Part shown: piece after piece, positions 49,950 to 61,395 of the stretch
Layout of the letters: each line of letters starts with the position of its first letter
Position numbering within the stretch: position 1 is the stretch's first letter
Source of the DNA: a virus
Virus record (IMG/VR): IMGVR_UViG_3300022744_000001
Location: 66,022-130,021 of that record
Reading direction: 5' to 3' (one strand)
Length of the DNA: 64,000 nt
The notes under the pieces: generated by a model
What the model saw: only the letters and a program-made list of their open reading frames with translations
Told to the model about the DNA's origin: nothing
Databases searched by the model: none
Program-made: the position numbers and the translations under genes

Positions 49950-49994
49950 GCAAAGTCCTCCAGGGCGGGAAGTACACCGGGCCGGAAGTGAAAT

Positions 49995-50205
49995 CGGGAC
50001 TGCTACCTGACGGGACTGCTACCCGACCCACTCCCCGGCCCCGCAGGGGCCCCCGGAAAAGGTGCGGTGGGGTTTGCAGGGACCAACGGGCCAGAATTTT
50101 CGAACCGGGGGCCCCTCGGAAAAGCCGGGTCCCGTTTTGGGGGACCACCGGGCCAGAATTAAAAAGACCCCCACCCCCTCCGGCCTGAAAAAGGCGTGAG
50201 GGGGT
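49995..50205. repeat. non-coding repeat cluster: 13-bp direct repeat CGGGACTGCTACC x2; ~60-bp imperfect tandem repeat x2 (core GGGACCAMCGGGCCAGAATT); 7-bp GC hairpin; followed by AT-richer 100 bp
   Basis: seen directly. Confidence 0.6.
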
Positions 50206-50329
50206 AACGCCACCGCAACATATTCGTACGCCAACTGAATGAGGGGTTTTTCGAGTCAAGACCCGTGCCAACACAATAATCAAGCGGTTTTTCTTGCGCC
50301 CTTTTAATTTCGTCGGAGGTACCCACACT

Positions 50330-50560
50330 CTACCTACCCACGACAACCTCACGCTCACCCACGACACAGACCCGGTGTTTGACTACACGCTCGCCACCGT
50401 TGGCATAGTGGGTACCGAGCGCTTCCCACAGTGCGACCTCGGGGGAGATGGCACGGACCTTGTGGCCGGTACCTGTGAGGGTATGGTCTCGCCCGCTCAA
50501 GAGGGTGACATGGTAGGTGAGGGTCATGGGGGAGTAGGGTTGAGTGACTGGCACTGGGGT
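50330..50560 (-). CDS. hypothetical protein (76 aa)
   Basis: GC3-rich frame. Confidence 0.35.
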   Translation of the reverse strand, partial: TPVPVTQPYSPMTLTYHVTLLSGRDHTLTGTGHKVRAISPEVALWEALGTHYANGGERVVKHRVCVVGEREVVVGR

Positions 50561-51994: not shown

Positions 51995-52258
51995 TCAGAG
52001 CGAGCCTTGACGTGAGCCCAAGAAAATAGCGGCCGTCTGACGAAGGGTAGACGGGGAGATACCTGTGTGCTCCGCGTAGGTGAGGATGGACTCGGCCAGG
52101 GCGAGCCCGTCCACCTTCGCTTGGGTGGGGTTGGTGTCAGCGGCCCGGGTCAGGAAGCGGTAGGCGTTGGCTCGACGGTCACCCTCCCAGCCCGGGTGTT
52201 CCCCGCGGAGGATCTGGGCAAGCTCGTTCAGGACGGTCATGAAGCTGCTCGAGGGCAT
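51995..52258 (-). CDS. hypothetical protein (87 aa)
   Basis: M1 + AAGGAGAC. Confidence 0.55.
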   Translation of the reverse strand: MPSSSFMTVLNELAQILRGEHPGWEGDRRANAYRFLTRAADTNPTQAKVDGLALAESILTYAEHTGISPSTLRQTAAIFLGSRQGSL

Positions 52259-52339
52259 GAGGGTCTCCTTGGCCTATGAACGCACGAGGGTAGGGCCAGG
52301 CTATACCGCGTCGAGTCGAATTTTCCCTGTGAGCGAGCG

Positions 52340-52520
52340 TACGTCCCCGTATAGGGGCGTGACCGCCGAAACGTTACCAAGGGTGTGGTGGGTGGGCGCG
52401 CGTGGGCTAGGCGGGGCCGAAACCTGTCCAGTGGAGGCAGAATCCGCGGGGGACGGGCTCAGCGGGTAAAGGAAAATGCTTGACAAATGAAAACGGCCAA
52501 AACCTCGCCTTTCCGCGGGG
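52340..52520 (+). ncRNA. candidate non-coding transcript: orphan plus-oriented M1 copy followed by CAAGGGTGTGGTGGGTGGG, element X (AACCTGTCCAGTGGAGGCAGAATCCGC) and a 10-bp hairpin
   Basis: no ATG after the M1 downstream half; conserved elements repeated at 53685 and 56440/56900. Confidence 0.3.
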
Positions 52521-52556
52521 TTTTGGCCTAGCCCGTTTAGGGTGACCGCGAGGGGG

Positions 52557-52858
52557 TCAGTATCCGCCGTGCTTGAAGAGGATTTCCCCGGCCGCGGAGG
52601 CAGGCTCTTCGGGGAGGAACTTGAACCGGAGCTTCTTGCCCTCGTGGTCGAGCATCTCGACGGTCATGAAGCGGAAGCCGCGACCGGAGGCGTCCCAGCC
52701 GATGGAGACCCGGGGGTCGGCGTTGAGGGTCGTACGCAGGTCCGGCAAGAGTTTCCGGATCTCCGCGTAGGTGTCGATGGCGAACTGGGTGTAGACCGCT
52801 TCGATGCGCTTGGAGAGAGTGCCGCCACTGGCGGTCCTGTAGTCGTAGTTGTGCATGT
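52557..52858 (-). CDS. hypothetical protein (100 aa)
   Basis: ATG preceded by palindrome TTGTGCGTTGCACAA. Confidence 0.45.
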
Positions 52859-52896
52859 ATGGGCTCCCTATCTTCCTTGTGCGTTGCACAAAGGCT

Positions 52897-53076
52897 TTAC
52901 CACTGGACGGTGAGTTCGATTCGCTTGGTCTCGAGGGCCTCGAGCAGGGCGTCCACCTCGTCGTGGGTTAGGCCAGTGCCTTCCCGCAGGACCTCGTCGA
53001 TGGCCTGGGGCCGGGCCAGCCCTTGGGCTTCCTTGGCTTGTACGCGCTCGAGAACCGCTTGGGTCTTGGTGTTCAT
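52897..53076 (-). CDS. hypothetical protein (59 aa)
   Basis: GAGAGG RBS. Confidence 0.4.
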   Translation of the reverse strand: MNTKTQAVLERVQAKEAQGLARPQAIDEVLREGTGLTHDEVDALLEALETKRIELTVQW

Positions 53077-53090
53077 GTCCTTGCCTCTCA

Positions 53091-53288
53091 TCAGTCCGGG
53101 GTGTGCCGTTGGTACTCCGACGTCATGGCTTCCAGGACCTCTTGCAGGTCCTCGCCGGTGAAGAAGCGTTCTGCCTTGCGGTATGCCTTCTCCAGCTCCT
53201 GGTCGGTCTTGCACGTACGCGCCAGGGCGATCAGCTGGTCGTAGGTCTCGCTGACATCGTAGCCAGTAGGCTTCTTCTTGCGTGCCAT
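53091..53288 (-). CDS. hypothetical basic protein (65 aa)
   Basis: M1. Confidence 0.5.
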   Translation of the reverse strand: MARKKKPTGYDVSETYDQLIALARTCKTDQELEKAYRKAERFFTGEDLQEVLEAMTSEYQRHTPD

Positions 53289-53327
53289 GTCCTATGAACG
53301 CGCGAGGGGGCTCGAGCCTATACCGGC

Positions 53328-53603
53328 TCAGCGGCCCTGGTCGATGCGGTAGGCCAGCTCGGATTTGGCGCGCACCAGGGCGTCGGCCAGGTAGAGGGTC
53401 TTCTCGGATACGTCCCCGACAGGGCGATGGGTGATGCGGCGGGTCAGGTAGAGCGTCACCTGCTCCCAGGCTCGAGCCATCGCGGAGGCACGCTTCCGGG
53501 CCTCCTCCGTGGTCGCGTGGTTCCAAGCCAGGTCCTGCCACATCCCGATCAGGGCGGCGGACTGGGTACGGGCAGAGTGAAGGGCGATGATTCGTGCGTA
53601 CAT
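53328..53603 (-). CDS. hypothetical protein (91 aa)
   Basis: M1. Confidence 0.55.
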   Translation of the reverse strand: MYARIIALHSARTQSAALIGMWQDLAWNHATTEEARKRASAMARAWEQVTLYLTRRITHRPVGDVSEKTLYLADALVRAKSELAYRIDQGR

Positions 53604-53684
53604 GCCCTAGAAACGCGCGAGCCAGCTCGAGCCTATACCGAAAACGACCACGAACTTTCCTTGTGGGCGAGCACACGTCCAGGT

Positions 53685-53860
53685 TTAGACCGAGCCGTCC
53701 CGGTGCGTTACCAAGGGTGTGGTGGGTGGGAGCCCCCCGGGCGGGCGTCCGGGACCTCGAGCCAAGAAAAACGACATGGCACGAAGATTGTCCGGGGGAT
53801 CTTTCGAACTCGAGCATATAGAAGGCCCCCAGAGGGCCGGGCACATAGAACCCGCAACCC
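53685..53860 (+). ncRNA. second candidate non-coding transcript: orphan plus M1-like copy + CAAGGGTGTGGTGGGTGGG
   Basis: homologous to 52300-52390 element; only ORF after it is A/R/P/G-rich and antisense to a supported gene. Confidence 0.25.
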
Positions 53861-53866
53861 GGGCGG

Positions 53867-54085
53867 CTAGGGCTCGTCCACCTGGGCCACCTTGTGCACC
53901 CGGGGCTCGAGCGAGCTGAGCCGCACCCGCTTCTCCACCAGCTCCCAAACCCCCCGCCGACAAACCGCCACCCGGATCGTCGCCCTCACCCGCGACACCC
54001 GAACCACCACGGCCGCCACCGAGAACGTGAAGCCGTACCCGCCCCGGGACTCATGCCGCCACGTAACACGGTCACCAGCCTTCAC
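53867..54085 (-). CDS. hypothetical protein (GTG start, AAGAGGTAG RBS)
   Basis: RBS. Confidence 0.45.
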   Translation of the reverse strand: MKAGDRVTWRHESRGGYGFTFSVAAVVVRVSRVRATIRVAVCRRGVWELVEKRVRLSSLEPRVHKVAQVDEP

Positions 54086-54460: not shown

Positions 54461-54808
54461 ATGGAGACGATCGTCGAGCTGTGTCCGAAGTGCCAGGGGA
54501 CGGGAAACCTCCCCCAGTACGCCCACGTGCAGAACGGCGTGTGCTTCCGCTGCTCCGGCACGGGTCGCGACCTCCGAGCCGAGCTTGCCACGGCCGTCCA
54601 GAAGCTCGCTCGAGCACGTCGGGAGTGGCAGAGCCTCAACCGGACCAGCAAGCGCGCCAGGGGCGTCCACAAACGCCACATGAAGGAAGAACTCGACCTC
54701 CTCACCCGCGAGGGTAAACAGCTCCGGAAGCACGTGGACACCCTCCAAGCCGCTATCGCCGGTCGTATCCAACTACCCTCTCCCCGTACAAACTCAAATC
54801 ACGTGTAG
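54461..54808 (+). CDS. DnaJ/anti-TRAP-type zinc-finger protein (CPKCQGTG, CFRCSGTG) with helical C-terminus
   Basis: GAGGTGTGAG RBS. Confidence 0.55.
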   Translation: METIVELCPKCQGTGNLPQYAHVQNGVCFRCSGTGRDLRAELATAVQKLARARREWQSLNRTSKRARGVHKRHMKEELDLLTREGKQLRKHVDTLQAAIAGRIQLPSPRTNSNHV

Positions 54809-54993: not shown

Positions 54994-55653
54994 TCAAGCG
55001 ACGCGGATGGCGTTCTCGACCTTGGTGCAGATGGCTTCCACGGCCGAGCGAGCACGGTCGGTGCCCACCTTCGCGACGATGGCCGAGAGCTTGGAGAGGA
55101 CCAGGGGGTCCATGGTCTCGAGGACCTTCTCGCCACCCTCGAACTCCGCATCGGCCGCCACAGGGGCCTTGCGGACCTTGCGCTGAGGAGCCACGGCAAC
55201 CGGGGCAGCCTTGCGGCGGCTGGGGATGCCCAGCTCCTTCCGATGGTTGTTCACGACCTTGTAGCAGTAGCCGTACGTGACCGTCTGGTTGTGCTTGTCC
55301 GCCAAGAACTTGATGATGTTCTTGGGCTCCTTGATGCCAGCGTCGTACGCCTGGATGATCAGGGCCGTCTTGTTCACGTGGTCCACTTCCATGCCCTCGC
55401 TCTTCTTCACGGGCTTGGTCGCCACCACAGGGGCAGCCTTGCGGGTCACGACACGCTTCTGGCCCTTGGCCGTCTTCGCGCGCTTGGCCATGTACTTCTG
55501 CTTCACCGTGTAGATGAGCGATGCGTCCAGGTCCATCTGGTGCTTCTCACGCACGTAGACCTTGATGTCCGCAGGCTTGTCGTGGCCCGCATCCATCGCT
55601 TCACGAATCGCAGCCGACTTCGAAAGGGTCGTACCAGCTTCGGGCGTCTCCAT
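54994..55653 (-). CDS. DNA-binding-like protein with two tandem helix-turn-helix-like repeats separated by Lys/Ala/Pro-rich basic linkers
   Basis: internal repeat; GAGGAGAGAAG RBS. Confidence 0.5.
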   Translation of the reverse strand: METPEAGTTLSKSAAIREAMDAGHDKPADIKVYVREKHQMDLDASLIYTVKQKYMAKRAKTAKGQKRVVTRKAAPVVATKPVKKSEGMEVDHVNKTALIIQAYDAGIKEPKNIIKFLADKHNQTVTYGYCYKVVNNHRKELGIPSRRKAAPVAVAPQRKVRKAPVAADAEFEGGEKVLETMDPLVLSKLSAIVAKVGTDRARSAVEAICTKVENAIRVA

Positions 55654-55896: not shown

Positions 55897-56223
55897 TCAG
55901 ACCACTGGGGCAGCCGTGGGAGCGGCTTTCTTGGATGCCTTCTTGGCCTTGGGGGCAGGGGTTTCACCACTGCTCGCCGCTGCGGGCTTCTCAGCGGCCT
56001 TCTTGACCCTCGGGCCACGCTCGGGGAAGAGGCAAAGGGTGCCCTTGCGGTCGATGATGCGGGCCATCTTGCCCCCGAAGCTGTGCGGGCCCTTCCCCTC
56101 CTTCTCGAGGATCTGGCGCAGGATGTCTCGACCCTCCGCTTGAAGGGTCTTCACCTGGGCCTGAGTGGTCTCGGTCTCGGCCTTGTTGGCCACGTACTTG
56201 TCAAAGAGTGATGTCTTGCTCAT
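55897..56223 (-). CDS. small protein with histone H1-like Lys/Ala/Pro-rich C-terminal tail
   Basis: M2; tail AKKASKKAAPTAAPVV. Confidence 0.5.
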   Translation of the reverse strand: MSKTSLFDKYVANKAETETTQAQVKTLQAEGRDILRQILEKEGKGPHSFGGKMARIIDRKGTLCLFPERGPRVKKAAEKPAAASSGETPAPKAKKASKKAAPTAAPVV

Positions 56224-56564
56224 GGTCCAGCTCACTACACCGGCCGTAGGCAAGCCCTGGAAAGAAAACCGGCCCCACCGCAGGACGCTCCAGCAAGGCT
56301 GTGTGGGTTCACAGGGACGCCTATCCCTCCCCCACGCGCTTCTTGGTAGCCCGCCATCGTCCCAGCGCGGTAGAACCGGTAGCCGCACCCTCTACCCTCC
56401 CCCTCGAACCACGTCAAGCCACCCCACGTAGGTCAGAGGTACTCGAAACTTGTCCAGTGGGAGACGAATCCGCCCAAACACCCTCTCAGCTCGAGCGGCA
56501 AAACCCTACGTGGCAAAACTTGACCAAACTACCCCCTTTCCCAGGGTAGCTCAGAAGTGGTTTG

Positions 56565-56810
56565 TTAGACCCCGACCTTGTCCAGGATGTCGCGCGCCCT
56601 CTTGGGAGGAAGGGTTGGTTCGGGTAAGGGTGGCCGCCCTTTCTTGGTAGGTTCGCTCGAGAGGGTCTGCCCAGCCTCAGCAGCCAGGATACCCAGGGTA
56701 ATGACTCGCACCAGGGTCGCGTGGAAAGACACCCCCTCCGGGGTGAGGGCCTTGATGCGCTCCTTGAACTCGGTCGGGAGACGAACCGGAATTGGGTTTT
56801 CTCTTGCCAT
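56565..56810 (-). CDS. ribbon-helix-helix (Arc/MetJ/CopG-type) DNA-binding protein
   Basis: PIPVRLPTEFKERIKALT beta-strand/helix signature at N-terminus. Confidence 0.55.
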   Translation of the reverse strand: MARENPIPVRLPTEFKERIKALTPEGVSFHATLVRVITLGILAAEAGQTLSSEPTKKGRPPLPEPTLPPKRARDILDKVGV

Positions 56811-56814
56811 TTTG

Positions 56815-56990
56815 GGTGACTACCTTTCCTGTATACCGTGGTGCACCATTTCCGTATACCGGTTTATACCATTCCTGTATACCGCGCGCAACCCCTCCCC
56901 GGCTGGCGCGTTCACGTGCCCACCCACCACACCCTTGTGAACGCGCCAGCCCCCTCGTTCCTATACCTGGACGTGGCCCAGCCCACGAAC
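56815..56990. promoter_or_regulatory. operator/promoter hub: four GTATACC boxes, perfect 15-bp inverted repeat GGCTGGCGCGTTCAC/GTGAACGCGCCAGCC around GGGTGTGGTGGGTGGG, and minus-oriented M1
   Basis: seen directly. Confidence 0.55.
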
Positions 56991-57035
56991 AATCGCACCC
57001 GTATAGAACCAGCCATCCTCGTGCGTTAGAGGGAC
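56990..57035 (+). promoter_or_regulatory. M1 motif (plus)
   Basis: TATAGAAC-N13-GCGTTAGAGGGAC-ATG. Confidence 0.55.
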
Positions 57036-57383
57036 ATGGCACGCTACCAACACATCGCAATCGGGGCCCTCGAGAGGGGCGTTCGCACCCTTGCCAAGAG
57101 CCTCGAGAAGCTCGGGCTCACCACCCAGGTCCACGTGTTCAAGAGCGGCCCCGGCGGCGCCACGTACTTCGGAGCGTCCTACGTCGAACTCGAGGTGAGC
57201 GTCACCTTCAATACCCCCGAGGGCGAGCAGGATGCCTCCCACACGGTCAAGTTCCTGGCCAACGGGTACACGAGCAACGACGCCGACGAAATCGGCGGTA
57301 CCCAGGGCTGGCGCCCCATGGGCGAGGAAGCTCGTACCCGCATCCTCACCAAGCTCCAGGAGCAGGGCTGGAAGCTCCCCTGA
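57036..57383 (+). CDS. hypothetical protein (115 aa)
   Basis: M1. Confidence 0.55.
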   Translation: MARYQHIAIGALERGVRTLAKSLEKLGLTTQVHVFKSGPGGATYFGASYVELEVSVTFNTPEGEQDASHTVKFLANGYTSNDADEIGGTQGWRPMGEEARTRILTKLQEQGWKLP

Positions 57384-57437
57384 GCCAGTATAGAACCACC
57401 CACCCTCGCGCGTTCATAGAGCACAAGGAGCAAGTCA

Positions 57438-57524
57438 TGGCCAAGCGCAAGACCCCCACGTTCATCATCGAGGAGAATGTCGGCAACGGCCACCACGACC
57501 CCTCGCGCGTTCATAGGGCATGAG
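57438..57524 (+). CDS. 28-aa ORF between a full M1 copy (with added AAGGAG RBS) and a second GCGCGTTCAT half-motif
   Basis: seen directly; coding status uncertain. Confidence 0.3.
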
Positions 57525-57804: not shown

Positions 57805-58335
57805 AGGGCCAACACTTCGACTCTGACCAAAAGGTTCGACCAACCCCTACCCGAATACCGCACAACCTCAAAAGTCAAACGAAAAGCGTGGGTACCTGAC
57901 CAGCACCAACCATGTCCGCAGGTAAATCCCGCACGCGGTAGTCAAGCACAATCCACAACCATTACGCTTTGTGGTCTCGGTACCTGACCATAGCTCGGTA
58001 CCTTGTCATCCGTGTGTTGTGGCCGGTGTACATACCTCCAAAGCTATACAAACCTCTAGGCACGGAAGTTGCAGAGAGGTTTTGGAACGGGTGGGGGTTT
58101 GGCAACGACCACAACGACACGACTTTAAAAGGACTTTGGCCCTTCGGGCCGGGTCGGTTTCGAGTCTTGTCCAGGTTGTGCAAACGGCCCTCCCCTGGGA
58201 CCTCTTTTGTCTGGAGTTGGTCCCCCGTCTCCACGGCACCACCTGGGCCTCTGGCGGGCCTTGGTTGTGCTCTTGGGGGTTTCTCCCCTGGGGGTTTCTC
58301 CCTTTGCTCCTATGGGGCTCTTCTGGGCGTGTCCT
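57805..58335. other. 530-bp apparently non-coding boundary region with GGTACCTGACCA x2 and TGGGGGTTTCTCCC x2 direct repeats and a GGCCC-TTC-GGGCC hairpin
   Basis: no convincing ORF; composition switches here. Confidence 0.4.
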
Positions 58336-59193
58336 TTACTTGGCTCGCTCCTGTTCTTCCTGGTCTCTCCGCAGGGCTTCTTGGACGTCTTCCCACCACT
58401 GTGTGGCTTGGTTGATGAAGGCGTCTTCGGCACCTTCTACCTGGTCGAATCCCGGGTACGTATTGACCTCTAGGAGTGTGGGGGGACCTTCCTTTGGGAC
58501 TTGGTAGTCGATGCCCACGACATCTAGGTTGAGCTTGTGGGCTGTGAGGGAGGCGTGGCTGAGGAGGGTGTGTCCTTTGGGGGTGGTGGGTTCGAGGGGG
58601 AGGGTTTCGATCGCGGCTTCGACATTCTTGCGCCAGTCGTGGCTGTGGTAGCGGAGGTGCCACGTGTGGGGGCCGATGATGAGGATGCGGTCGGAGGTTC
58701 CTGGGATGTAGGGTTCGACGAGGGTGTCGTCTGGGGCGGTGAAGGGGCCTTGGGAGAGGGCTTTATCTTCGCCGCAGTGGGAGTTGCTCCATTTGAAGAC
58801 GTGGGGGGCGGGGGTGGGCAGTTCGAGTCTGTGTCCTTGGGGGAGGAAGCCTCTGGGGACATGGGAGTTGGGGTTGGCCAGGAGGAGGGAGAGGACCCTA
58901 TCGTCGTGGGGCAGTGTGGGGCGGATGTTTGGGAACGTGGGGGTGTTGGCGAGGGCGAGTGCTCTTCTTGTCTGTTGGGCGTGGGGGAAGTAGCCGTAGT
59001 AGATGACCCCGTTTGGTTCGAGCCATCTTCCTGGGACGCGTTGGGACTCGATACGGACTTGGCCATCGAGGCTGTAGGCGGGGGGTGGGGCTGCGTAGTG
59101 GACGACTCGGGTGTTTTTGAGGCGGGTGCGGAGTTGGGCGTCGGTGGTGGGGTCGATGCCTATGCTGATGAGGAGGGGGTCGTTCGGGGTCAT
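58336..59193 (-). CDS. ATP-grasp family ligase-like protein
   Basis: C-terminal LLEVNTYPGF block typical of ATP-grasp; C-rich codons on strongly strand-skewed segment. Confidence 0.55.
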   Translation of the reverse strand: MTPNDPLLISIGIDPTTDAQLRTRLKNTRVVHYAAPPPAYSLDGQVRIESQRVPGRWLEPNGVIYYGYFPHAQQTRRALALANTPTFPNIRPTLPHDDRVLSLLLANPNSHVPRGFLPQGHRLELPTPAPHVFKWSNSHCGEDKALSQGPFTAPDDTLVEPYIPGTSDRILIIGPHTWHLRYHSHDWRKNVEAAIETLPLEPTTPKGHTLLSHASLTAHKLNLDVVGIDYQVPKEGPPTLLEVNTYPGFDQVEGAEDAFINQATQWWEDVQEALRRDQEEQERAK

Positions 59194-59229
59194 GGGGGAC
59201 GGTTTAGCACGGGCGGTGTAGCTAGGAGG

Positions 59230-59805
59230 ATGCGGATTTTCCTCAACGACGTGCGAATCGATGCCACAGGGGCCTACTATGAGAGTGGTTTTGTGTACTT
59301 CCGCGTCCCTGAAGGGCTTTATGAGCCTATGGTTTCGGTCCTTGTCGAGTTGGGCATGTGGCGACAGGGGCCGAAGTTCTGGGGGAGGCTAGCGGGGCCG
59401 CGGCTTGTGGTGGGCGGGATGGCTCGATGGGTTCTTCCGTATGCGTCGATGGGTTATCGGGACGACTGTCAGGTGGCGGATGGGGAGCGGGTGTGGCGGT
59501 TGCGGATGAACCGTGCTGGGAGTCTGGAGTGGGGCTGCACTTCGGACGACGTGGTTGTGCGTGAGGCGACTTGTGACGAGTGGGCGGTATTGCACCGGGG
59601 GAAGGTGGTGGGGATTGTGGACGACATGGGCAAGACGTTGGGGGATGTTTTGCGTGAGGCTCGGGGGCTGGTTCCTTGTCTGCCGGTGAAGCTCGAGTTC
59701 GTCTCTCCCCCCGTGGTCACGGCGGCGGATGGTCAGGTGTTTGTGATGGAGCGGGTGGGTGAGCCGGAGCCCCGGGTTTTGTCTCGGTTCGACTTGATCG
59801 GGTGA
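59230..59805 (+). CDS. hypothetical protein ending SRFDLIG
   Basis: M2 (GGTGTAGC-N7-ATG). Confidence 0.5.
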   Translation: MRIFLNDVRIDATGAYYESGFVYFRVPEGLYEPMVSVLVELGMWRQGPKFWGRLAGPRLVVGGMARWVLPYASMGYRDDCQVADGERVWRLRMNRAGSLEWGCTSDDVVVREATCDEWAVLHRGKVVGIVDDMGKTLGDVLREARGLVPCLPVKLEFVSPPVVTAADGQVFVMERVGEPEPRVLSRFDLIG

Positions 59806-59808
59806 GCG

Positions 59809-60354
59809 ATGCTGTACCAGGTCTACGACTTGAGGATGGGTCCGGTGGCGGGGTTTTACCTGCCTCCGGTGATGGGGCCGACGGGTCATGTTCGGGTGGT
59901 GAACAGTGCGGGGCTCTTTGAGCGGGGGTCGGCCTCTTACATCTTCGTCCGGGTGGACGGGGTGCAGTTCCGTGTGGACGGGACGTGGGGCATCTATCCT
60001 GGTGGGATGGGGGCGCCTGAGTTGGCCTTCACGGGGACGTACTCGGTTCCGGATCGTGTGGAGGCGGGGCTCACGTGGACGTTCACGGACTTCGGGTGGG
60101 AGACCACGTTCATGGGGCATGAGCTTGTGGTGGCGTTGAGCCCGGACTTGGAGGACTCCTACATCTGGGTTGTCTGGTTTGCGGACACTCAGGTCGGTGG
60201 GCCGTATGGGTTGGGGCGGTCGGGGCTTTTCGAGCAAGCGAAGAAGGACGCCTATGCGTGGGCACGGCGTCTTGTTCTTGCGTTTGTGGAGGAGGCGGAC
60301 CCGTTTGAGGAGGTGCGGTCGGGTCTCGTCTCGAGGTTCGATTTGATCGGGTAG
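59809..60354 (+). CDS. hypothetical protein ending SRFDLIG
   Basis: GGGTGAGCG RBS; shares C-terminal SRFDLIG with preceding gene. Confidence 0.5.
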   Translation: MLYQVYDLRMGPVAGFYLPPVMGPTGHVRVVNSAGLFERGSASYIFVRVDGVQFRVDGTWGIYPGGMGAPELAFTGTYSVPDRVEAGLTWTFTDFGWETTFMGHELVVALSPDLEDSYIWVVWFADTQVGGPYGLGRSGLFEQAKKDAYAWARRLVLAFVEEADPFEEVRSGLVSRFDLIG

Positions 60355-60356
60355 GT

Positions 60357-60830
60357 TCAGCCTTGGCTGAGCGCGTGTTTGGCCCAGAAGTCTCTCGAGG
60401 CGACGAGTTCTTCCCAGGTTGCGATGGAGGGGTCACCGGGCTCCCTCGGTGCTGCGGGGCCGGGGTACACCGTATAGAGGACATGGGGTTGGCCATCGTG
60501 TGGGCCGATGACCATGGTCACCAGGTGTGTGGTCGTCGGTCCCAGCGTGGTCATGCGTGAGGCGTAGGGGCGACCTCCGCGGACGAAGTAGAAGGCGTTC
60601 TCGTTGGGGACCGCTTGGTCTCCCACGGTGGGGCCGCGGAGCTGGCAGGCGTACGCTTTGGGGCTCGTGAAGGTGAGGATGAGGGGCGGGAACGGTGTGA
60701 ACGTTCTTGGGGTCCTCTGCCAAGCCTCGAAATGCTCTTGGGCGAGTTCGAGGATGCGTGGGCGCTCCTCCGCGGCAAAGTGGTCGAGGTGCGTGTCCGT
60801 GTGGATGGTCAGCGTCTTGTTCATGCTCAT
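60357..60830 (-). CDS. hypothetical protein
   Basis: ORF track; start ambiguous (60830/60893). Confidence 0.35.
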   Translation of the reverse strand: MSMNKTLTIHTDTHLDHFAAEERPRILELAQEHFEAWQRTPRTFTPFPPLILTFTSPKAYACQLRGPTVGDQAVPNENAFYFVRGGRPYASRMTTLGPTTTHLVTMVIGPHDGQPHVLYTVYPGPAAPREPGDPSIATWEELVASRDFWAKHALSQG

Positions 60831-60915
60831 GTGACGTGCGGGGGCGGTGGCTTCTGACAGCTCTCGGTGTATTTGATCCGGCAATCTCTTCATGGGATAG
60901 TGGGGCCCTGGTATT

Positions 60916-61395
60916 ATGCAGGCAATTATACAGGCAGTTTTCGCACGTGCGGCGGATTTGGTTCAGGAGCGATGGGTTCCGGTTCGTGACCGGAAGGACC
61001 AGTTTGTGGGCGAGGTTGGCCAATGCCCGCTCGTGACGGTGCTCGGTGAGGTTGGTTGTCGGCCCCCTCGTGTGCCTGGTCTTGAGTCTCGAGGGCCTTA
61101 CGCGGCGTTCCAGCTGTGGGCGCAGCTGGCTCGCGGGTATCTCATGGGTGACGACGAGTTTCGGGCCGCGCTCTATCGATCCGCGTTGGCCTATGCTCCG
61201 GTGGCTATTGACCATGCGGTCTCGGTGGGCCACGTCGGTGCGGTTCGTGCGCTTCGGGCCCGGTTTGAGGCGTTGGATTCTCCTTTTCAGATCAAGCAGC
61301 AAGTACGAGCGGTTATGGCCTTCCCGCTCTACTGCGACCTTCACGTTTTCCGGTCCCCCGGTGAGGCGGCTGCTTACTTGCGGAGGGCGTTCTAG
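60916..61395 (+). CDS. hypothetical protein; 5' end lies in a 12-nt tandem repeat ATTATGCAGGCA/ATTATACAGGCA
   Basis: ORF track. Confidence 0.4.
   Translation: MQAIIQAVFARAADLVQERWVPVRDRKDQFVGEVGQCPLVTVLGEVGCRPPRVPGLESRGPYAAFQLWAQLARGYLMGDDEFRAALYRSALAYAPVAIDHAVSVGHVGAVRALRARFEALDSPFQIKQQVRAVMAFPLYCDLHVFRSPGEAAAYLRRAF

What the first reader, a model, noticed from the sequence alone, without database searches (positions are those of the whole stretch)
52340..53860. Orphan promoter-motif copies feeding conserved G-rich non-coding elements (small-RNA candidates)
Two plus-oriented M1 copies (52340 and 53685), and one minus-oriented copy at 56930, are not followed by an ATG. Each is followed instead by the identical 19-mer CAAGGGTGTGGTGGGTGGG; the runs of G make it G-quadruplex-capable. 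The 52340 copy continues into a conserved element X (AACYTGTCCAGTGGRAGRCRGAATCCGC, also at 56446) and a 10-bp hairpin at 52485-52518. The 90 bp upstream of each G-rich block are also homologous between loci. This pattern fits a family of promoter-driven non-coding RNAs or regulatory leaders.
Basis: seen in the sequence. Interest (0 to 1): 0.7.

Follow-up and report, generated by a model that had tools for sequence, protein, structure and literature searches.

The report
G-box subclass of phage promoters
Three copies of a huge phage-like element's own promoter carry an extra upstream box and an identical 19-base G-rich block right at the transcription start; they look like a separately controlled promoter class (one drives a small regulator gene, two fire short gene-less transcripts) rather than a family of conserved small-RNA genes.

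Summary
The sequence facts hold. CAAGGGTGTGGTGGGTGGG occurs exactly three times (52378+, 53712+, 56919-), each just after a copy of the window's 32-copy two-block motif M1 (GTATAG-N14-GCGCGTT). M1 usually sits 8 nt before an ATG, so it is very probably a promoter for leaderless mRNAs.

New points:
- The three copies form a subclass. All three, and no other M1, have ACGTCC 2 nt upstream of the -35 hexamer.
- Each lies back-to-back (34-44 bp) with an ordinary M1 promoter.
- The 19-mer spans about -6 to +13, and similarity stops right after it.
- Copy 3 is not an orphan. It is the strongest match and leads, through a 108-nt leader with three 23-bp-spaced repeats, into an RHH-like gene and two further genes that have no M1 of their own.
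- Copies 1 and 2 point against neighbouring operons and reach their terminator hairpins after about 95-100 nt.

I found no conserved RNA body, no significant folding, no Rfam hit, no coding signal and no relatives carrying the motif. G-quadruplex potential is unremarkable.

Best reading (confidence about 0.4): a co-regulated promoter/operator cassette in the control region at the GC-skew minimum of a 448-kb circular element. The sRNA, antitermination, R-loop-priming and micro-ORF readings are not excluded.

The parts
52341..52375 (+). G-box promoter 1 (weakest): ACGTCC box 52341-46, -35 GTATAG 52349-54, -10 block AAACGTT 52369-75
   Evidence: (7.4 bits vs background -39+-11)
52378..52396 (+). 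G-box copy 1 (CAAGGGTGTGGTGGGTGGG); predicted start site about 52383-52385
   Evidence: start position inferred from the fixed CGTT-to-ATG distance of 8 nt
52418..52447 (+). Element X1
   Evidence: (D14)
52495..52528 (.). 14-bp hairpin; intrinsic terminator of minus-strand gene 52557..52856 and probable 3' end of the copy-1 transcript (about 146 nt)
52270..52306 (-). Ordinary M1 promoter back-to-back with copy 1 (42 bp between the -35 hexamers); drives gene 51995..52258(-)
53675..53709 (+). G-box promoter 2: ACGTCC 53675-80, -35 GTTTAG 53683-88, -10 block GTGCGTT 53703-09
   Evidence: (14.6 bits)
53712..53730 (+). G-box copy 2; predicted start site about 53717-53719
53783..53800 (+). Weak X-like stretch (GAAGATTGTCCGGGGGAT)
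   Evidence: direct reading; not significant on its own
53824..53838 (.). Hairpin GGCCCCCAGAGGGCC; terminator-like on the minus strand after gene 53867..54085(-)
53601..53638 (-). Ordinary M1 promoter back-to-back with copy 2 (44 bp); drives gene 53328..53603(-)
56940..56974 (-). G-box promoter 3 (strong): ACGTCC 56974-69, -35 GTATAG 56966-61, -10 block GCGCGTT 56946-40
   Evidence: (26.2 bits)
56919..56937 (-). G-box copy 3; predicted start site about 56932-56930; flanked by a perfect 15-bp inverted repeat (56951-56937 / 56915-56901)
56821..56884 (-). Three 18-bp repeats CGGTATAC(A/G)G(G/A)AA(T/A)GGT(A/G) at 23-bp spacing inside the 108-nt leader (operator-like)
   Evidence: (D11)
56565..56810 (-). 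81-aa gene, ribbon-helix-helix-like (extended residues 1-12, helices 13-22 and 29-45); first gene transcribed from copy 3
   Evidence: no homologues; the RHH assignment is an inference
55897..56223 (-). 108-aa protein with a Lys/Ala/Pro-rich tail; no M1 of its own; preceded by a terminator-like hairpin at 56286-56272
54994..55653 (-). 219-aa two-repeat protein; no M1 of its own; preceded by a terminator-like hairpin at 55822-55796
56444..56473 (+). Element X2; lies antisense within the intergenic RNA of the copy-3 operon
57001..57038 (+). Ordinary M1 promoter back-to-back with copy 3 (34 bp); drives gene 57036..57383(+)

Best explanation
The three sites are a distinct, separately controlled subclass ('G-box promoters') of the element's own two-block promoter M1.

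The cassette. Each site has the layout ACGTCC box - 2 nt - -35 GT(A/T)TAG - N14 - -10 (G)CGTT - G-box, and each is placed back-to-back with an ordinary M1 promoter. The ACGTCC box and the 19-bp G-box (about -6 to +13) are recognition sites for a class-specific regulator acting on DNA at or around the promoter. That places three transcription units under one control which the other 29 promoters do not share.

What each copy does. The strongest copy (3) expresses a small RHH-type regulator and two DNA-binding-looking proteins. The RHH protein is the obvious candidate for the factor that binds the G-box and/or the three leader repeats, which would give autoregulation. The two weaker, gene-less copies (1, 2) fire against the flow of the leftward operons. 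They give roughly 120-150-nt non-coding transcripts that end at, or run antisense beyond, the neighbours' terminators. Their likely role is local: antisense, promoter or terminator interference, or modulation of the adjacent ordinary promoter. A structured trans-acting RNA is unlikely.

Shown versus inferred. Shown: the anatomy, the exclusivity of the boxes, the abrupt end of similarity, and the absence of coding and structural signal. Inferred: the start sites, the identity of the regulator, and the fate and role of the short RNAs.
For: M1 is a promoter for leaderless or short-leader mRNAs:
- There are 32 copies with consensus cCgGTATAGAa..cCT.GCGCGTT..aGGaCAtGG.
- 11 or more have ATG exactly 8 nt after CGTT with no Shine-Dalgarno sequence. 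About 15 have 16-24-nt leaders containing GGAG.
- A distant relative (L009) has a sigma-70-like -35/-10 pair at the same distances from a leaderless ATG.

The three are M1 variants:
- PWM scores are 26.2, 14.6 and 7.4 bits against a background of -39 +- 11.

Class-specific DNA features:
- ACGTCC lies exactly 2 nt upstream of the -35 in 3 of 3 special copies and 0 of 29 others.
- The identical 19-mer is in 3 of 3 and nowhere else in about 83 kb.
- These are the only tight divergent promoter pairs in the window, with 34-44 bp between hexamers.

Pattern of conservation:
- 25/25 identity between copies 1 and 2 and 20/20 between copies 1 and 3, inside flanks that are about 60-70% identical, and ending abruptly after GGGTGGG(C). 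This is the pattern of a short recognition site, not of an RNA gene.

Copy 3 heads an operon:
- A 108-nt leader with 3 x 18-bp repeats leads into the RHH-like gene (helix pattern).
- Two further genes follow that lack M1 and are separated by terminator-like hairpins.

Signals that are absent:
- No coding signal in ORFs starting at the GTG (GC3 0.59-0.72 and GC2 0.57-0.66, versus 0.8-0.9 and 0.4-0.5 in real genes).
- No folding signal.
- No Rfam family.

Location:
- The sites lie in the trough of the cumulative GC skew, where gene orientation switches. That is a typical control region.
Against: - No experiment and no comparative data exist. The nearest relatives (54% identity for one protein) lack M1, the G-box and the neighbouring genes, so nothing shows that any protein binds the boxes.
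- The G-box is not palindromic, unlike most phage operators. Asymmetric and direct-repeat sites are known for monomeric repressors and RHH proteins (general knowledge).
- A regulated promoter with nothing to express (copies 1, 2) needs the extra assumption that the transcript or the RNAP occupancy is itself the product.
- 13-14 nt of the G-box would be transcribed, so an RNA-level role for it is equally compatible with the sequence.
- Element X downstream of copy 1, shared with 56444-56473, is not explained by a pure operator model.
Confidence: 0.4

Rival explanations
1. The sites make a family of small regulatory RNAs or leaders whose common G/U-only 5' end (GUGUGGUGGGUGGG) is the functional part. 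It would act as a seed that pairs with C-rich targets, or as a 5' G-quadruplex or stability tag. The copy-1 RNA would additionally pair through X1 with the RHH-operon mRNA at X2.
For: - Two copies have no gene downstream and reach hairpins after about 95-100 nt.
- 13-14 nt of the conserved block are predicted to be transcribed.
- Sibling sRNAs that share only a 5' seed are known (general knowledge).
- X1 is complementary to the minus-strand transcript at 56444-56473 (duplex -54 kcal/mol, about 3 sd below local windows).
- Copy 1 meets the canonical G4 motif.
Against: - Folding z-scores are -1.1, +0.07 and -1.9, and there is no Rfam hit.
- There is no outstanding complementary target for the G-box in the window apart from its own antisense.
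- Duplex energies like X1:X2 occur elsewhere.
- G4 potential is modest and not shared by all copies.
- The hairpins have U-tails only on the opposite strand.
- The ACGTCC box is untranscribed and so is unexplained.
- Conservation cannot be tested.
Confidence: 0.2
2. Processive-antitermination cassette of the lambda PR'-qut-6S RNA-tR' type. A DNA site next to the promoter (the ACGTCC box) and a conserved initial transcribed sequence (the G-box) load a Q- or put-like factor onto RNA polymerase. The polymerase then reads through the hairpins that otherwise give short RNAs.
For: - The layout matches: promoter, then adjacent DNA box, then conserved initial transcribed region, then a terminator about 100 nt downstream with no gene between.
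- The copy-3 operon has terminator-like hairpins between its genes, at 56286-56272 and 55822-55796.
Against: - Read-through from copies 1 and 2 would produce more than 1 kb of antisense RNA to leftward genes, not a late operon.
- No Q, N or other antiterminator homologue was seen among the window proteins scanned or in the precomputed Pfam calls.
- No -10-like pause element is evident in the G-box.
Confidence: 0.1
3. Transcription-primed (R-loop) replication start sites. A promoter fires into a G-cluster at +1, the G-rich RNA stays hybridised to the C-rich template, and it primes DNA synthesis. Known parallels are ColE1 RNA II, T4 oriF/oriG and mitochondrial LSP-CSBII.
For: - The three sites cluster within 4.6 kb in the trough of a V-shaped cumulative GC skew. 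Its twin minima lie at about 50 and 58 kb, and the skew stays negative even across a plus-strand gene in the left arm.
- The G-strands point inward from both sides.
- The first 100 nt of the predicted transcripts are G-skewed: 0.40, 0.19 and 0.37, which is the top 1%, 11% and 2% of windows.
- Two copies are gene-less promoters.
Against: - A more classical origin-like stretch sits at the sharpest skew switch, 2 kb away: ORF-free 49950-50330 with direct repeats and an AT-richer segment.
- The ACGTCC box is unexplained.
- Copy 3 plainly serves a gene.
- Skew and gene orientation are confounded.
- No replication proteins were recognised nearby.
Confidence: 0.1
4. Leaderless GUG-initiated micro-ORFs. 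At the position where ordinary M1 copies have ATG, the three have GTG TGG TGG GTG GG. This would give peptides beginning (M)WWVG of 28, 34 and 6 residues. The last would be an upstream ORF before the RHH gene, possibly sensing tryptophan or ribosome status.
For: - The GTG lies 7 nt after CGTT, against 8 nt for the ATG of ordinary copies.
- The copy-1 and copy-2 ORFs both contain E(T/D)CP in frame, and X2 translates to ETCPV in one frame, with 2 of the 5 X1/X2 differences synonymous.
- Leaderless GUG starts are used in mycobacteria (general knowledge).
Against: - Composition is non-coding-like: GC2 0.57-0.66 and GC3 0.69-0.72 for the two longer ORFs.
- All 11 or more clearly leaderless M1 genes use ATG.
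- 19/19 nucleotide identity, including synonymous positions, with complete divergence right afterwards, is not how peptides are conserved.
- The ORFs are very short.
Confidence: 0.05
5. Non-regulatory repeats. The 26/29-bp inverted repeats at 53702-53730 and 56919-56947 would be the ends of a mobile or invertible 3.2-kb segment. Alternatively, the sites are recent neutral duplications of one promoter region.
For: - Inverted arms are 90% complementary (I7).
- The neighbouring genes are not conserved in relatives.
- A 467-bp indel nearby shows recombination between promoter copies.
Against: - No transposase or recombinase was recognised inside or beside the segment.
- Homology extends outward through the promoter rather than stopping at an 'end'.
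- Perfect identity is confined to 19-25 bp within flanks that are about 65% identical, which argues for selection and not recent duplication.
- Three independent assemblies show one orientation only.
Confidence: 0.05

Closest known systems
Phage lambda late promoter unit PR'-qut-6S RNA-tR' (Q antitermination)
   Same: A promoter not followed by a gene. A factor-recognition DNA element lies at the promoter, together with a conserved initial transcribed region. A terminator a short distance downstream gives a short RNA by default.
   Different: There are three copies, not one. Two face convergent genes, so read-through has no obvious cargo. No Q-like protein or sigma-dependent pause element was identified. 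The promoter type is unrelated.
Phage P22 immI region (Pant-arc-ant, divergent Pmnt, antisense sar RNA)
   Same: A back-to-back promoter pair. The first gene behind the regulated promoter is a small ribbon-helix-helix repressor expected to autoregulate. Short antisense transcripts occur in the same control region.
   Different: There is no sequence or protein homology. The operator here would be an asymmetric G-rich 19-mer at the start site, not a 21-bp palindrome between -35 and -10. Binding is untested.
Mycobacteriophage L5 gp71 asymmetric operator/'stoperator' sites (GGTGGMTGTCAAG)
   Same: Short, asymmetric, G-rich, orientation-specific repeats. They lie in short intergenic regions of a leaderless-type phage genome and overlap a promoter in one case.
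   Different: L5 has about 30 dispersed sites, whereas here there are only three, clustered, and always fused to a promoter copy. The sequences are not alignable. This resemblance is recalled from the literature and was not tested here.
Phage lambda OOP RNA and similar convergent antisense sRNAs
   Same: A small gene-less transcript initiated downstream of, and convergent with, a neighbouring gene, ending at a hairpin.
   Different: Overlap with the target coding region is not established. The copy-1 and copy-2 transcripts may stop at the shared terminator before reaching the gene.
R-loop origins (ColE1 RNA II, T4 oriF/oriG, mitochondrial LSP-CSBII)
   Same: A promoter without a gene, a G-rich non-template strand close to the start, and a location at the skew-inferred origin region.
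   Different: There is no evidence of a persistent hybrid, no adjacent unwinding element common to all three, and one copy clearly expresses genes. A more classical repeat-plus-AT-rich origin candidate lies 2 kb away.

Membership tests
Two-block (sigma-type) phage promoter M1 of this element | GT(A/T)TAG and (G)CGTT blocks with a 14-nt gap to GCGCGTT | tested here: met
   All three have the exact spacing. Leave-one-out PWM scores are 26.2, 14.6 and 7.4 bits against a genome background of -39 +- 11.
Two-block (sigma-type) phage promoter M1 of this element | Start codon 8 nt after CGTT, or a short Shine-Dalgarno leader of 24 nt or less | tested here: not met
   There is no ATG. A GTG lies at 7 and at 9 nt, but the ORFs lack coding composition. 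For copy 3 the gene starts 127 nt after CGTT.
Two-block (sigma-type) phage promoter M1 of this element | Actual transcription initiation | not testable with these tools
   No transcriptome data are available. The start site is inferred from the fixed CGTT-to-ATG distance and from the sigma-70-like leaderless promoters of relative L009.
Known RNA families (Rfam 15) | Covariance-model match at or near the gathering score | tested here: not met
   0 hits at gathering score in the whole window. Only two sub-threshold chance hits (E 0.6-0.8) lie in 49.5-58.5 kb, and neither is at the elements.
Structured small RNA gene | Folding energy better than shuffled sequence; conserved structure with covariation | tested here: inconclusive
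   The energy test is not met: z = -1.1, +0.07 and -1.9. Covariation is untestable because no homologous loci exist.
Canonical G-quadruplex motif (G3+N1-7)x3G3+ | Four G3 runs with loops of 7 nt or less in every copy | tested here: not met
   Only copy 1 (52381-52406) matches. The fourth run of copy 2 needs an 8-nt loop and that of copy 3 an 18-nt loop. 44 other sites in the window have higher G4Hunter scores.
Lambda-type Q/qut antitermination unit | Promoter-proximal DNA site, a conserved initial transcribed region and a downstream terminator | tested here: met
   The ACGTCC box, the G-box and hairpins 95-100 nt downstream are all present. This is anatomical resemblance only.
Lambda-type Q/qut antitermination unit | A Q-family antiterminator gene and a late operon downstream of the terminator | tested here: not met
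   No Q, N or antiterminator domain appears in Pfam or PHROG scans or in the precomputed calls for about 83 kb. Downstream of copies 1 and 2 lie convergent genes.
Ribbon-helix-helix repressor with autoregulated promoter (Arc/CopG/omega type) | RHH fold of the first gene product | tested here: inconclusive
   The AF2 single-sequence model (pLDDT 77) shows an extended N-terminus followed by helices 13-22 and 29-45. There is no Pfam, PDB-sequence or Foldseek support.
Ribbon-helix-helix repressor with autoregulated promoter (Arc/CopG/omega type) | Protein binds repeated subsites in its own promoter | not testable with these tools
   The candidate sites are GGTG x3 within the G-box and 3 x 18-bp repeats at 23-bp spacing in the leader.
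R-loop-primed replication origin | Location at the replication origin | tested here: inconclusive
   The sites lie in the trough of the cumulative GC skew over the 73 kb available. The other roughly 375 kb of the circle were not seen, and a separate origin-like repeat region lies at 49950-50330.
R-loop-primed replication origin | Persistent RNA-DNA hybrid that primes DNA synthesis | not testable with these tools
   The only indirect evidence is G-skew of the first 100 nt: 0.40, 0.19 and 0.37.

The most novel reading that the evidence does not exclude
The G-box promoters are transcription-primed replication starts of a 448-kb huge phage. A dedicated promoter class fires directly into a G/T-only block. 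The block anchors the nascent RNA as an R-loop on both sides of the skew-defined origin region, and the RHH operon couples origin firing to regulator dosage.
Probability: 0.1. Interest if true: 0.75.

Novelty: new variant of a known kind. Interest (0 to 1): 0.4.

Why it matters
The window belongs to an uncharacterised 448-kb circular, phage-like element. Almost none of its proteins have recognisable relatives. Its transcription is organised by one extremely regular promoter that produces mostly leaderless mRNAs.

A three-member promoter subclass with its own flanking boxes, clustered at the skew minimum and the gene-orientation switch, is the first handle on how such a genome is regulated. It marks the probable control region and a candidate master regulator (the 81-aa RHH protein). 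It also gives short, testable cis-elements. If the two gene-less copies do make functional RNAs, or prime replication, that would be a new mechanism in huge phages.

As it stands this is a well-defined but ordinary-looking regulatory cassette, and its function rests on inference.

Tried and rejected
- Relatives by DNA. Exact scans for the 19-mer found 1 hit in IMG/VR, 5 in GTDB genomes and 16 in JGI metagenomes. All lie in unrelated contexts without M1, in numbers compatible with chance. Megablast of 51-58 kb against phage genomes found nothing.
- Relatives by protein. The 278-aa neighbour has homologues at 54% identity or less. Their loci (L009-L014) share no other gene of the region, lack both M1 and the G-box, and use a different promoter. 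The RHH protein has no homologue. Covariation analysis was therefore impossible.
- Population variation. Independent assemblies are 100% identical across the region, so there is no SNP information.
- Rfam. Nothing at gathering or E-value thresholds.
- Folding. No significant stability.
- Target search for the G-rich 5' end. Only its own antisense stands out.
- G4. Not distinctive.
- Fourth degenerate G-box at 56293. It matches 12/19, and about 100 such matches are expected by chance, so I rejected it.
- Genome-end or packaging-site idea. The ENA contig junction maps to 57352-57492. It is a 141-nt assembler overlap next to a 467-bp strain indel, not at the G-box, so I rejected it.
- Archaeal TATA/BRE reading of M1. 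I considered this. It is disfavoured by the bacterial-type gene content (GGDEF, ProQ-like, PHROG hits, toxin-antitoxin genes) and by protein composition.
- Foldseek with the RHH monomer model was uninformative.
- Pfam and PHROG scans of all neighbouring proteins were essentially empty.
Full report
**What the window is**

The window has 60.8% G+C. It is part of a 448,224-bp metagenomic contig (ENA ERZ27252002 k141_47206). The two ends of that contig overlap by exactly 141 nt at window 57352-57492, so the assembly is circular.

Independent Logan and JGI contigs are 100% identical to the window over the region of interest. Almost no protein has a Pfam or PHROG match (and the precomputed calls in 18, 45, 71). 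The few hits point to a huge bacteriophage or phage-like element:
- Phage_ProQ_C_like
- T4_Y16D
- a RecA_N fragment
- PHROG families matching the 278-aa protein
- a major-vault-protein-like 878-aa protein

Megablast against phage genomes finds nothing.

**The motif 'M1'**

I found 32 copies of GT(A/T)TAG-N14-(GCG)CGTT on both strands, with consensus cCgGTATAGAa..cCT.GCGCGTT..aGGaCAtGG.
- In at least 11 copies an ATG lies exactly 8 nt after CGTT with no Shine-Dalgarno sequence.
- About 15 others have a 16-24-nt leader containing GGAG.
- GTATAG is therefore at -35..-30 and GCGTT around -13..-9 relative to the A of the ATG.

A distant relative (L009) has a different but equally regular motif. There a sigma-70-like TTGCAC / TAGAGT pair sits at the same distances from a leaderless ATG. 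From this I infer that M1 is a two-block promoter, read by an unidentified and probably element-specific sigma or activator, and that it starts transcription at or next to the ATG. That is inference; no transcript data exist.

**Checking the observation**

CAAGGGTGTGGTGGGTGGG occurs exactly three times, at 52378+, 53712+ and 56919-. No further site appears at up to 3 mismatches. The chance expectation is 0.03, and 0 of 100 shuffles reach three.

Each copy sits 2 nt after the CGTT of an M1 copy. These are the only three M1 copies without a plausible gene start within 24 nt. The one other exception, M1@57388, has its gene truncated by the 467-bp deletion variant.

Element X is real: 52418-52447 and 56444-56473 match 25/30, and the 16/17 core has E=0.01 among the intergenic regions.

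Two points needed correction:
- The hairpin is at 52495-52528 with a 14-bp stem, 10 nt to the right of the stated coordinates. Its U-tail is on the minus strand, so it is the terminator of gene 52557..52856(-).
- The G-quadruplex claim is weak. Only copy 1 completes a canonical motif, and 44 other places in the window score higher on G4Hunter.

**New anatomy**

Aligning the three loci and scoring them gives five results.

1. They are true M1 variants of unequal strength: 26.2 bits for copy 3, 14.6 for copy 2 and 7.4 for copy 1, against a background of -39 +- 11.
2. All three, and none of the other 29, carry ACGTCC exactly 2 nt upstream of the -35 hexamer.
3. Each lies back-to-back with an ordinary, gene-serving M1 promoter on the other strand, with 42, 44 and 34 bp between the hexamers. 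These are the only tight divergent pairs in the window.
4. Identity is perfect for 25 nt between copies 1 and 2 and for 20 nt between copies 1 and 3, while the flanks are only about 60-70% identical. Similarity stops right after GGGTGGG(C). That pattern implies selection on a short site.
5. With the M1 geometry, the 19-mer spans about -6 to +13. Its first six bases resemble the ordinary M1 discriminator (ACCA-GG), so the class-specific part is GTGTGGTGGGTGGG, the first roughly 14 transcribed bases.

**What lies downstream**

Copy 3 is not an orphan. After the G-box come, in order:
- a perfect 15-bp inverted-repeat arm;
- three 18-bp repeats at 23-bp spacing (56884-56821);
- a Shine-Dalgarno-like AGGAAAGG;
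- an 81-aa gene (56810..56565).

The AF2 model of that protein (pLDDT 77) has an extended N-terminus followed by two helices, the ribbon-helix-helix pattern. It has no homologues, and the monomer model gives no Foldseek hit, so the RHH assignment is an inference.

Two more minus-strand genes follow: one of 108 aa with a Lys/Ala/Pro-rich tail, and one of 219 aa with two internal repeats. They have no M1 of their own and are separated by terminator-like hairpins.

Copies 1 and 2 point rightwards inside a leftward gene array. After 98 and 93 nt they meet the terminator hairpins of the convergent genes (52495-52528 and 53824-53838). Beyond those they would be antisense to the genes.

ORFs that start at the GTG in the ATG-equivalent position would give peptides beginning (M)WWVG of 28, 34 and 6 residues. 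Their composition is non-coding-like: GC2 is 0.57-0.66 and GC3 is 0.69-0.72 for the two longer ones, against about 0.45 and 0.8-0.9 in neighbouring genes.

**RNA-level tests**

- Predicted transcripts fold no better than shuffles (z = -1.1, +0.07, -1.9).
- Rfam finds nothing.
- The G-rich 5' end has no outstanding complementary partner in the window except its own antisense.
- X1 could pair with the RHH-operon RNA at X2 (-54 kcal/mol), but comparable energies occur elsewhere.

**Comparative tests**

- Exact scans for the 19-mer in IMG/VR, GTDB genomes and JGI metagenomes gave only unrelated hits, in numbers compatible with chance.
- The closest relatives of a neighbouring protein are 54% identical. 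They share neither the neighbouring genes, nor M1, nor the G-box.
- In the 83 kb of this genome that I could read (window plus 10 kb to the left and 9 kb to the right), there are no further copies.

Covariation and conservation therefore cannot be assessed.

**Context**

Cumulative GC skew falls from 0 to about 50 kb, shows twin minima at about 50 and 58 kb, and rises afterwards. The skew is negative even over a plus-strand gene in the left arm. Gene orientation switches in the same interval. The three elements therefore sit in the putative origin and control region, with their G-strands pointing inward.

The sharpest skew switch is at 49.9-50.3 kb. That stretch is ORF-free and carries direct repeats and an AT-richer segment. 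It looks like a more classical origin.

**Interpretation**

The untranscribed ACGTCC box, the exclusivity of both boxes, the divergent-pair architecture, the abrupt end of similarity and the absence of any RNA or coding signal are best covered by a DNA-level reading. On this reading the three sites are a separately regulated promoter subclass, a promoter/operator cassette. Its strongest member expresses a small RHH-type regulator operon, probably autoregulated. Its two weaker members produce short gene-less transcripts that act locally, by antisense or interference with the convergent terminators or the adjacent ordinary promoter, or are by-products of regulator and RNAP occupancy. I put this at about 0.4.

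As a family of conserved RNA genes it is unsupported (0.2).

The other rivals are:
- a lambda PR'/qut-like antitermination cassette (0.1);
- R-loop priming at the origin (0.1);
- leaderless GUG micro-ORFs (0.05);
- mobile, invertible or neutral repeats (0.05).

**Novelty and interest**

The cassette has no homologue and belongs to no described family, but the kind (a promoter subclass with its own operator-like boxes in a phage control region) is familiar. It is a useful entry point into the regulation of an otherwise opaque 448-kb element. Without transcript or binding data it stays a moderate-interest finding.

Noticed in passing
window 49950-50330: An ORF-free stretch of about 380 nt lies exactly at the sharpest GC-skew switch (1-kb skew -0.23 to +0.04). 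It has a 16-bp tandem repeat x2 (49995-50027), a 53-nt direct repeat x2 (50046-50098 / 50108-50160), and then an AT-richer segment (50216-50315, 45% GC). It looks like a classical replication-origin or iteron region.
   Followed up: partly
window-wide (32 sites; e.g. 51989-, 53323-, 57001+): A very regular promoter-like motif, GTATAG-N14-GCGCGTT, occurs with ATG exactly 8 nt after CGTT in at least 11 cases. This implies mostly leaderless mRNAs and an unidentified, probably element-encoded, sigma or activator. Relative L009 uses a different motif (palindrome TGATTTAGTG-TTG-CACTAAATCA plus GCTAGAGTCTAGAC-ATG) with the same leaderless geometry.
   Followed up: partly
window 57492/57493 vs L031 142-607: A strain-level 467-bp indel. 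The ENA 448-kb contig carries an extra segment (a 106-aa RecA_N-like gene plus one M1 promoter) that the window and the JGI contig L008 lack. In the window the preceding gene is truncated to 28 codons. The ENA contig ends overlap by 141 nt here, which indicates a circular assembly.
   Followed up: yes
window 30822-33458 (+): An 878-aa protein has a major-vault-protein shoulder domain (Pfam E=2e-20) and vault repeats. This is unusual for a phage-like bacterial element.
   Followed up: no
window 56821-56884 (-): The three leader repeats contain GGTATAC, one base away from the M1 -35 GGTATAG. A protein that binds them might also recognise ordinary M1 promoters, making it a possible global regulator.
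   Followed up: no
window 58000-61000: A segment has extreme GC skew (+0.26 to +0.36) and AT skew (-0.3). It includes a G/T-rich plus-strand gene at 59230..59805 whose codon usage is unlike the rest. This may be a foreign insertion or a strand-biased region next to the skew minimum.
   Followed up: no
window 52418-52447 and 56444-56473: Element X of the copy-1 transcript is complementary to the minus-strand RHH-operon RNA between the RHH gene and the next terminator (duplex about -54 kcal/mol). This is a possible RNA-RNA control point, but similar energies occur elsewhere.
   Followed up: partly
window 34565-34655 (+): tRNA-Ala(CGC) is predicted at an unusual length of 91 nt, which suggests a possible intron or a false extension.
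   Followed up: no
window 54461-54808 (+): A 115-aa protein has an N-terminal CxxCxGxG zinc ribbon. It gives weak Pfam hits to Anti-TRAP (E=0.003) and to the DnaJ central domain, both below their cut-offs.
   Followed up: no
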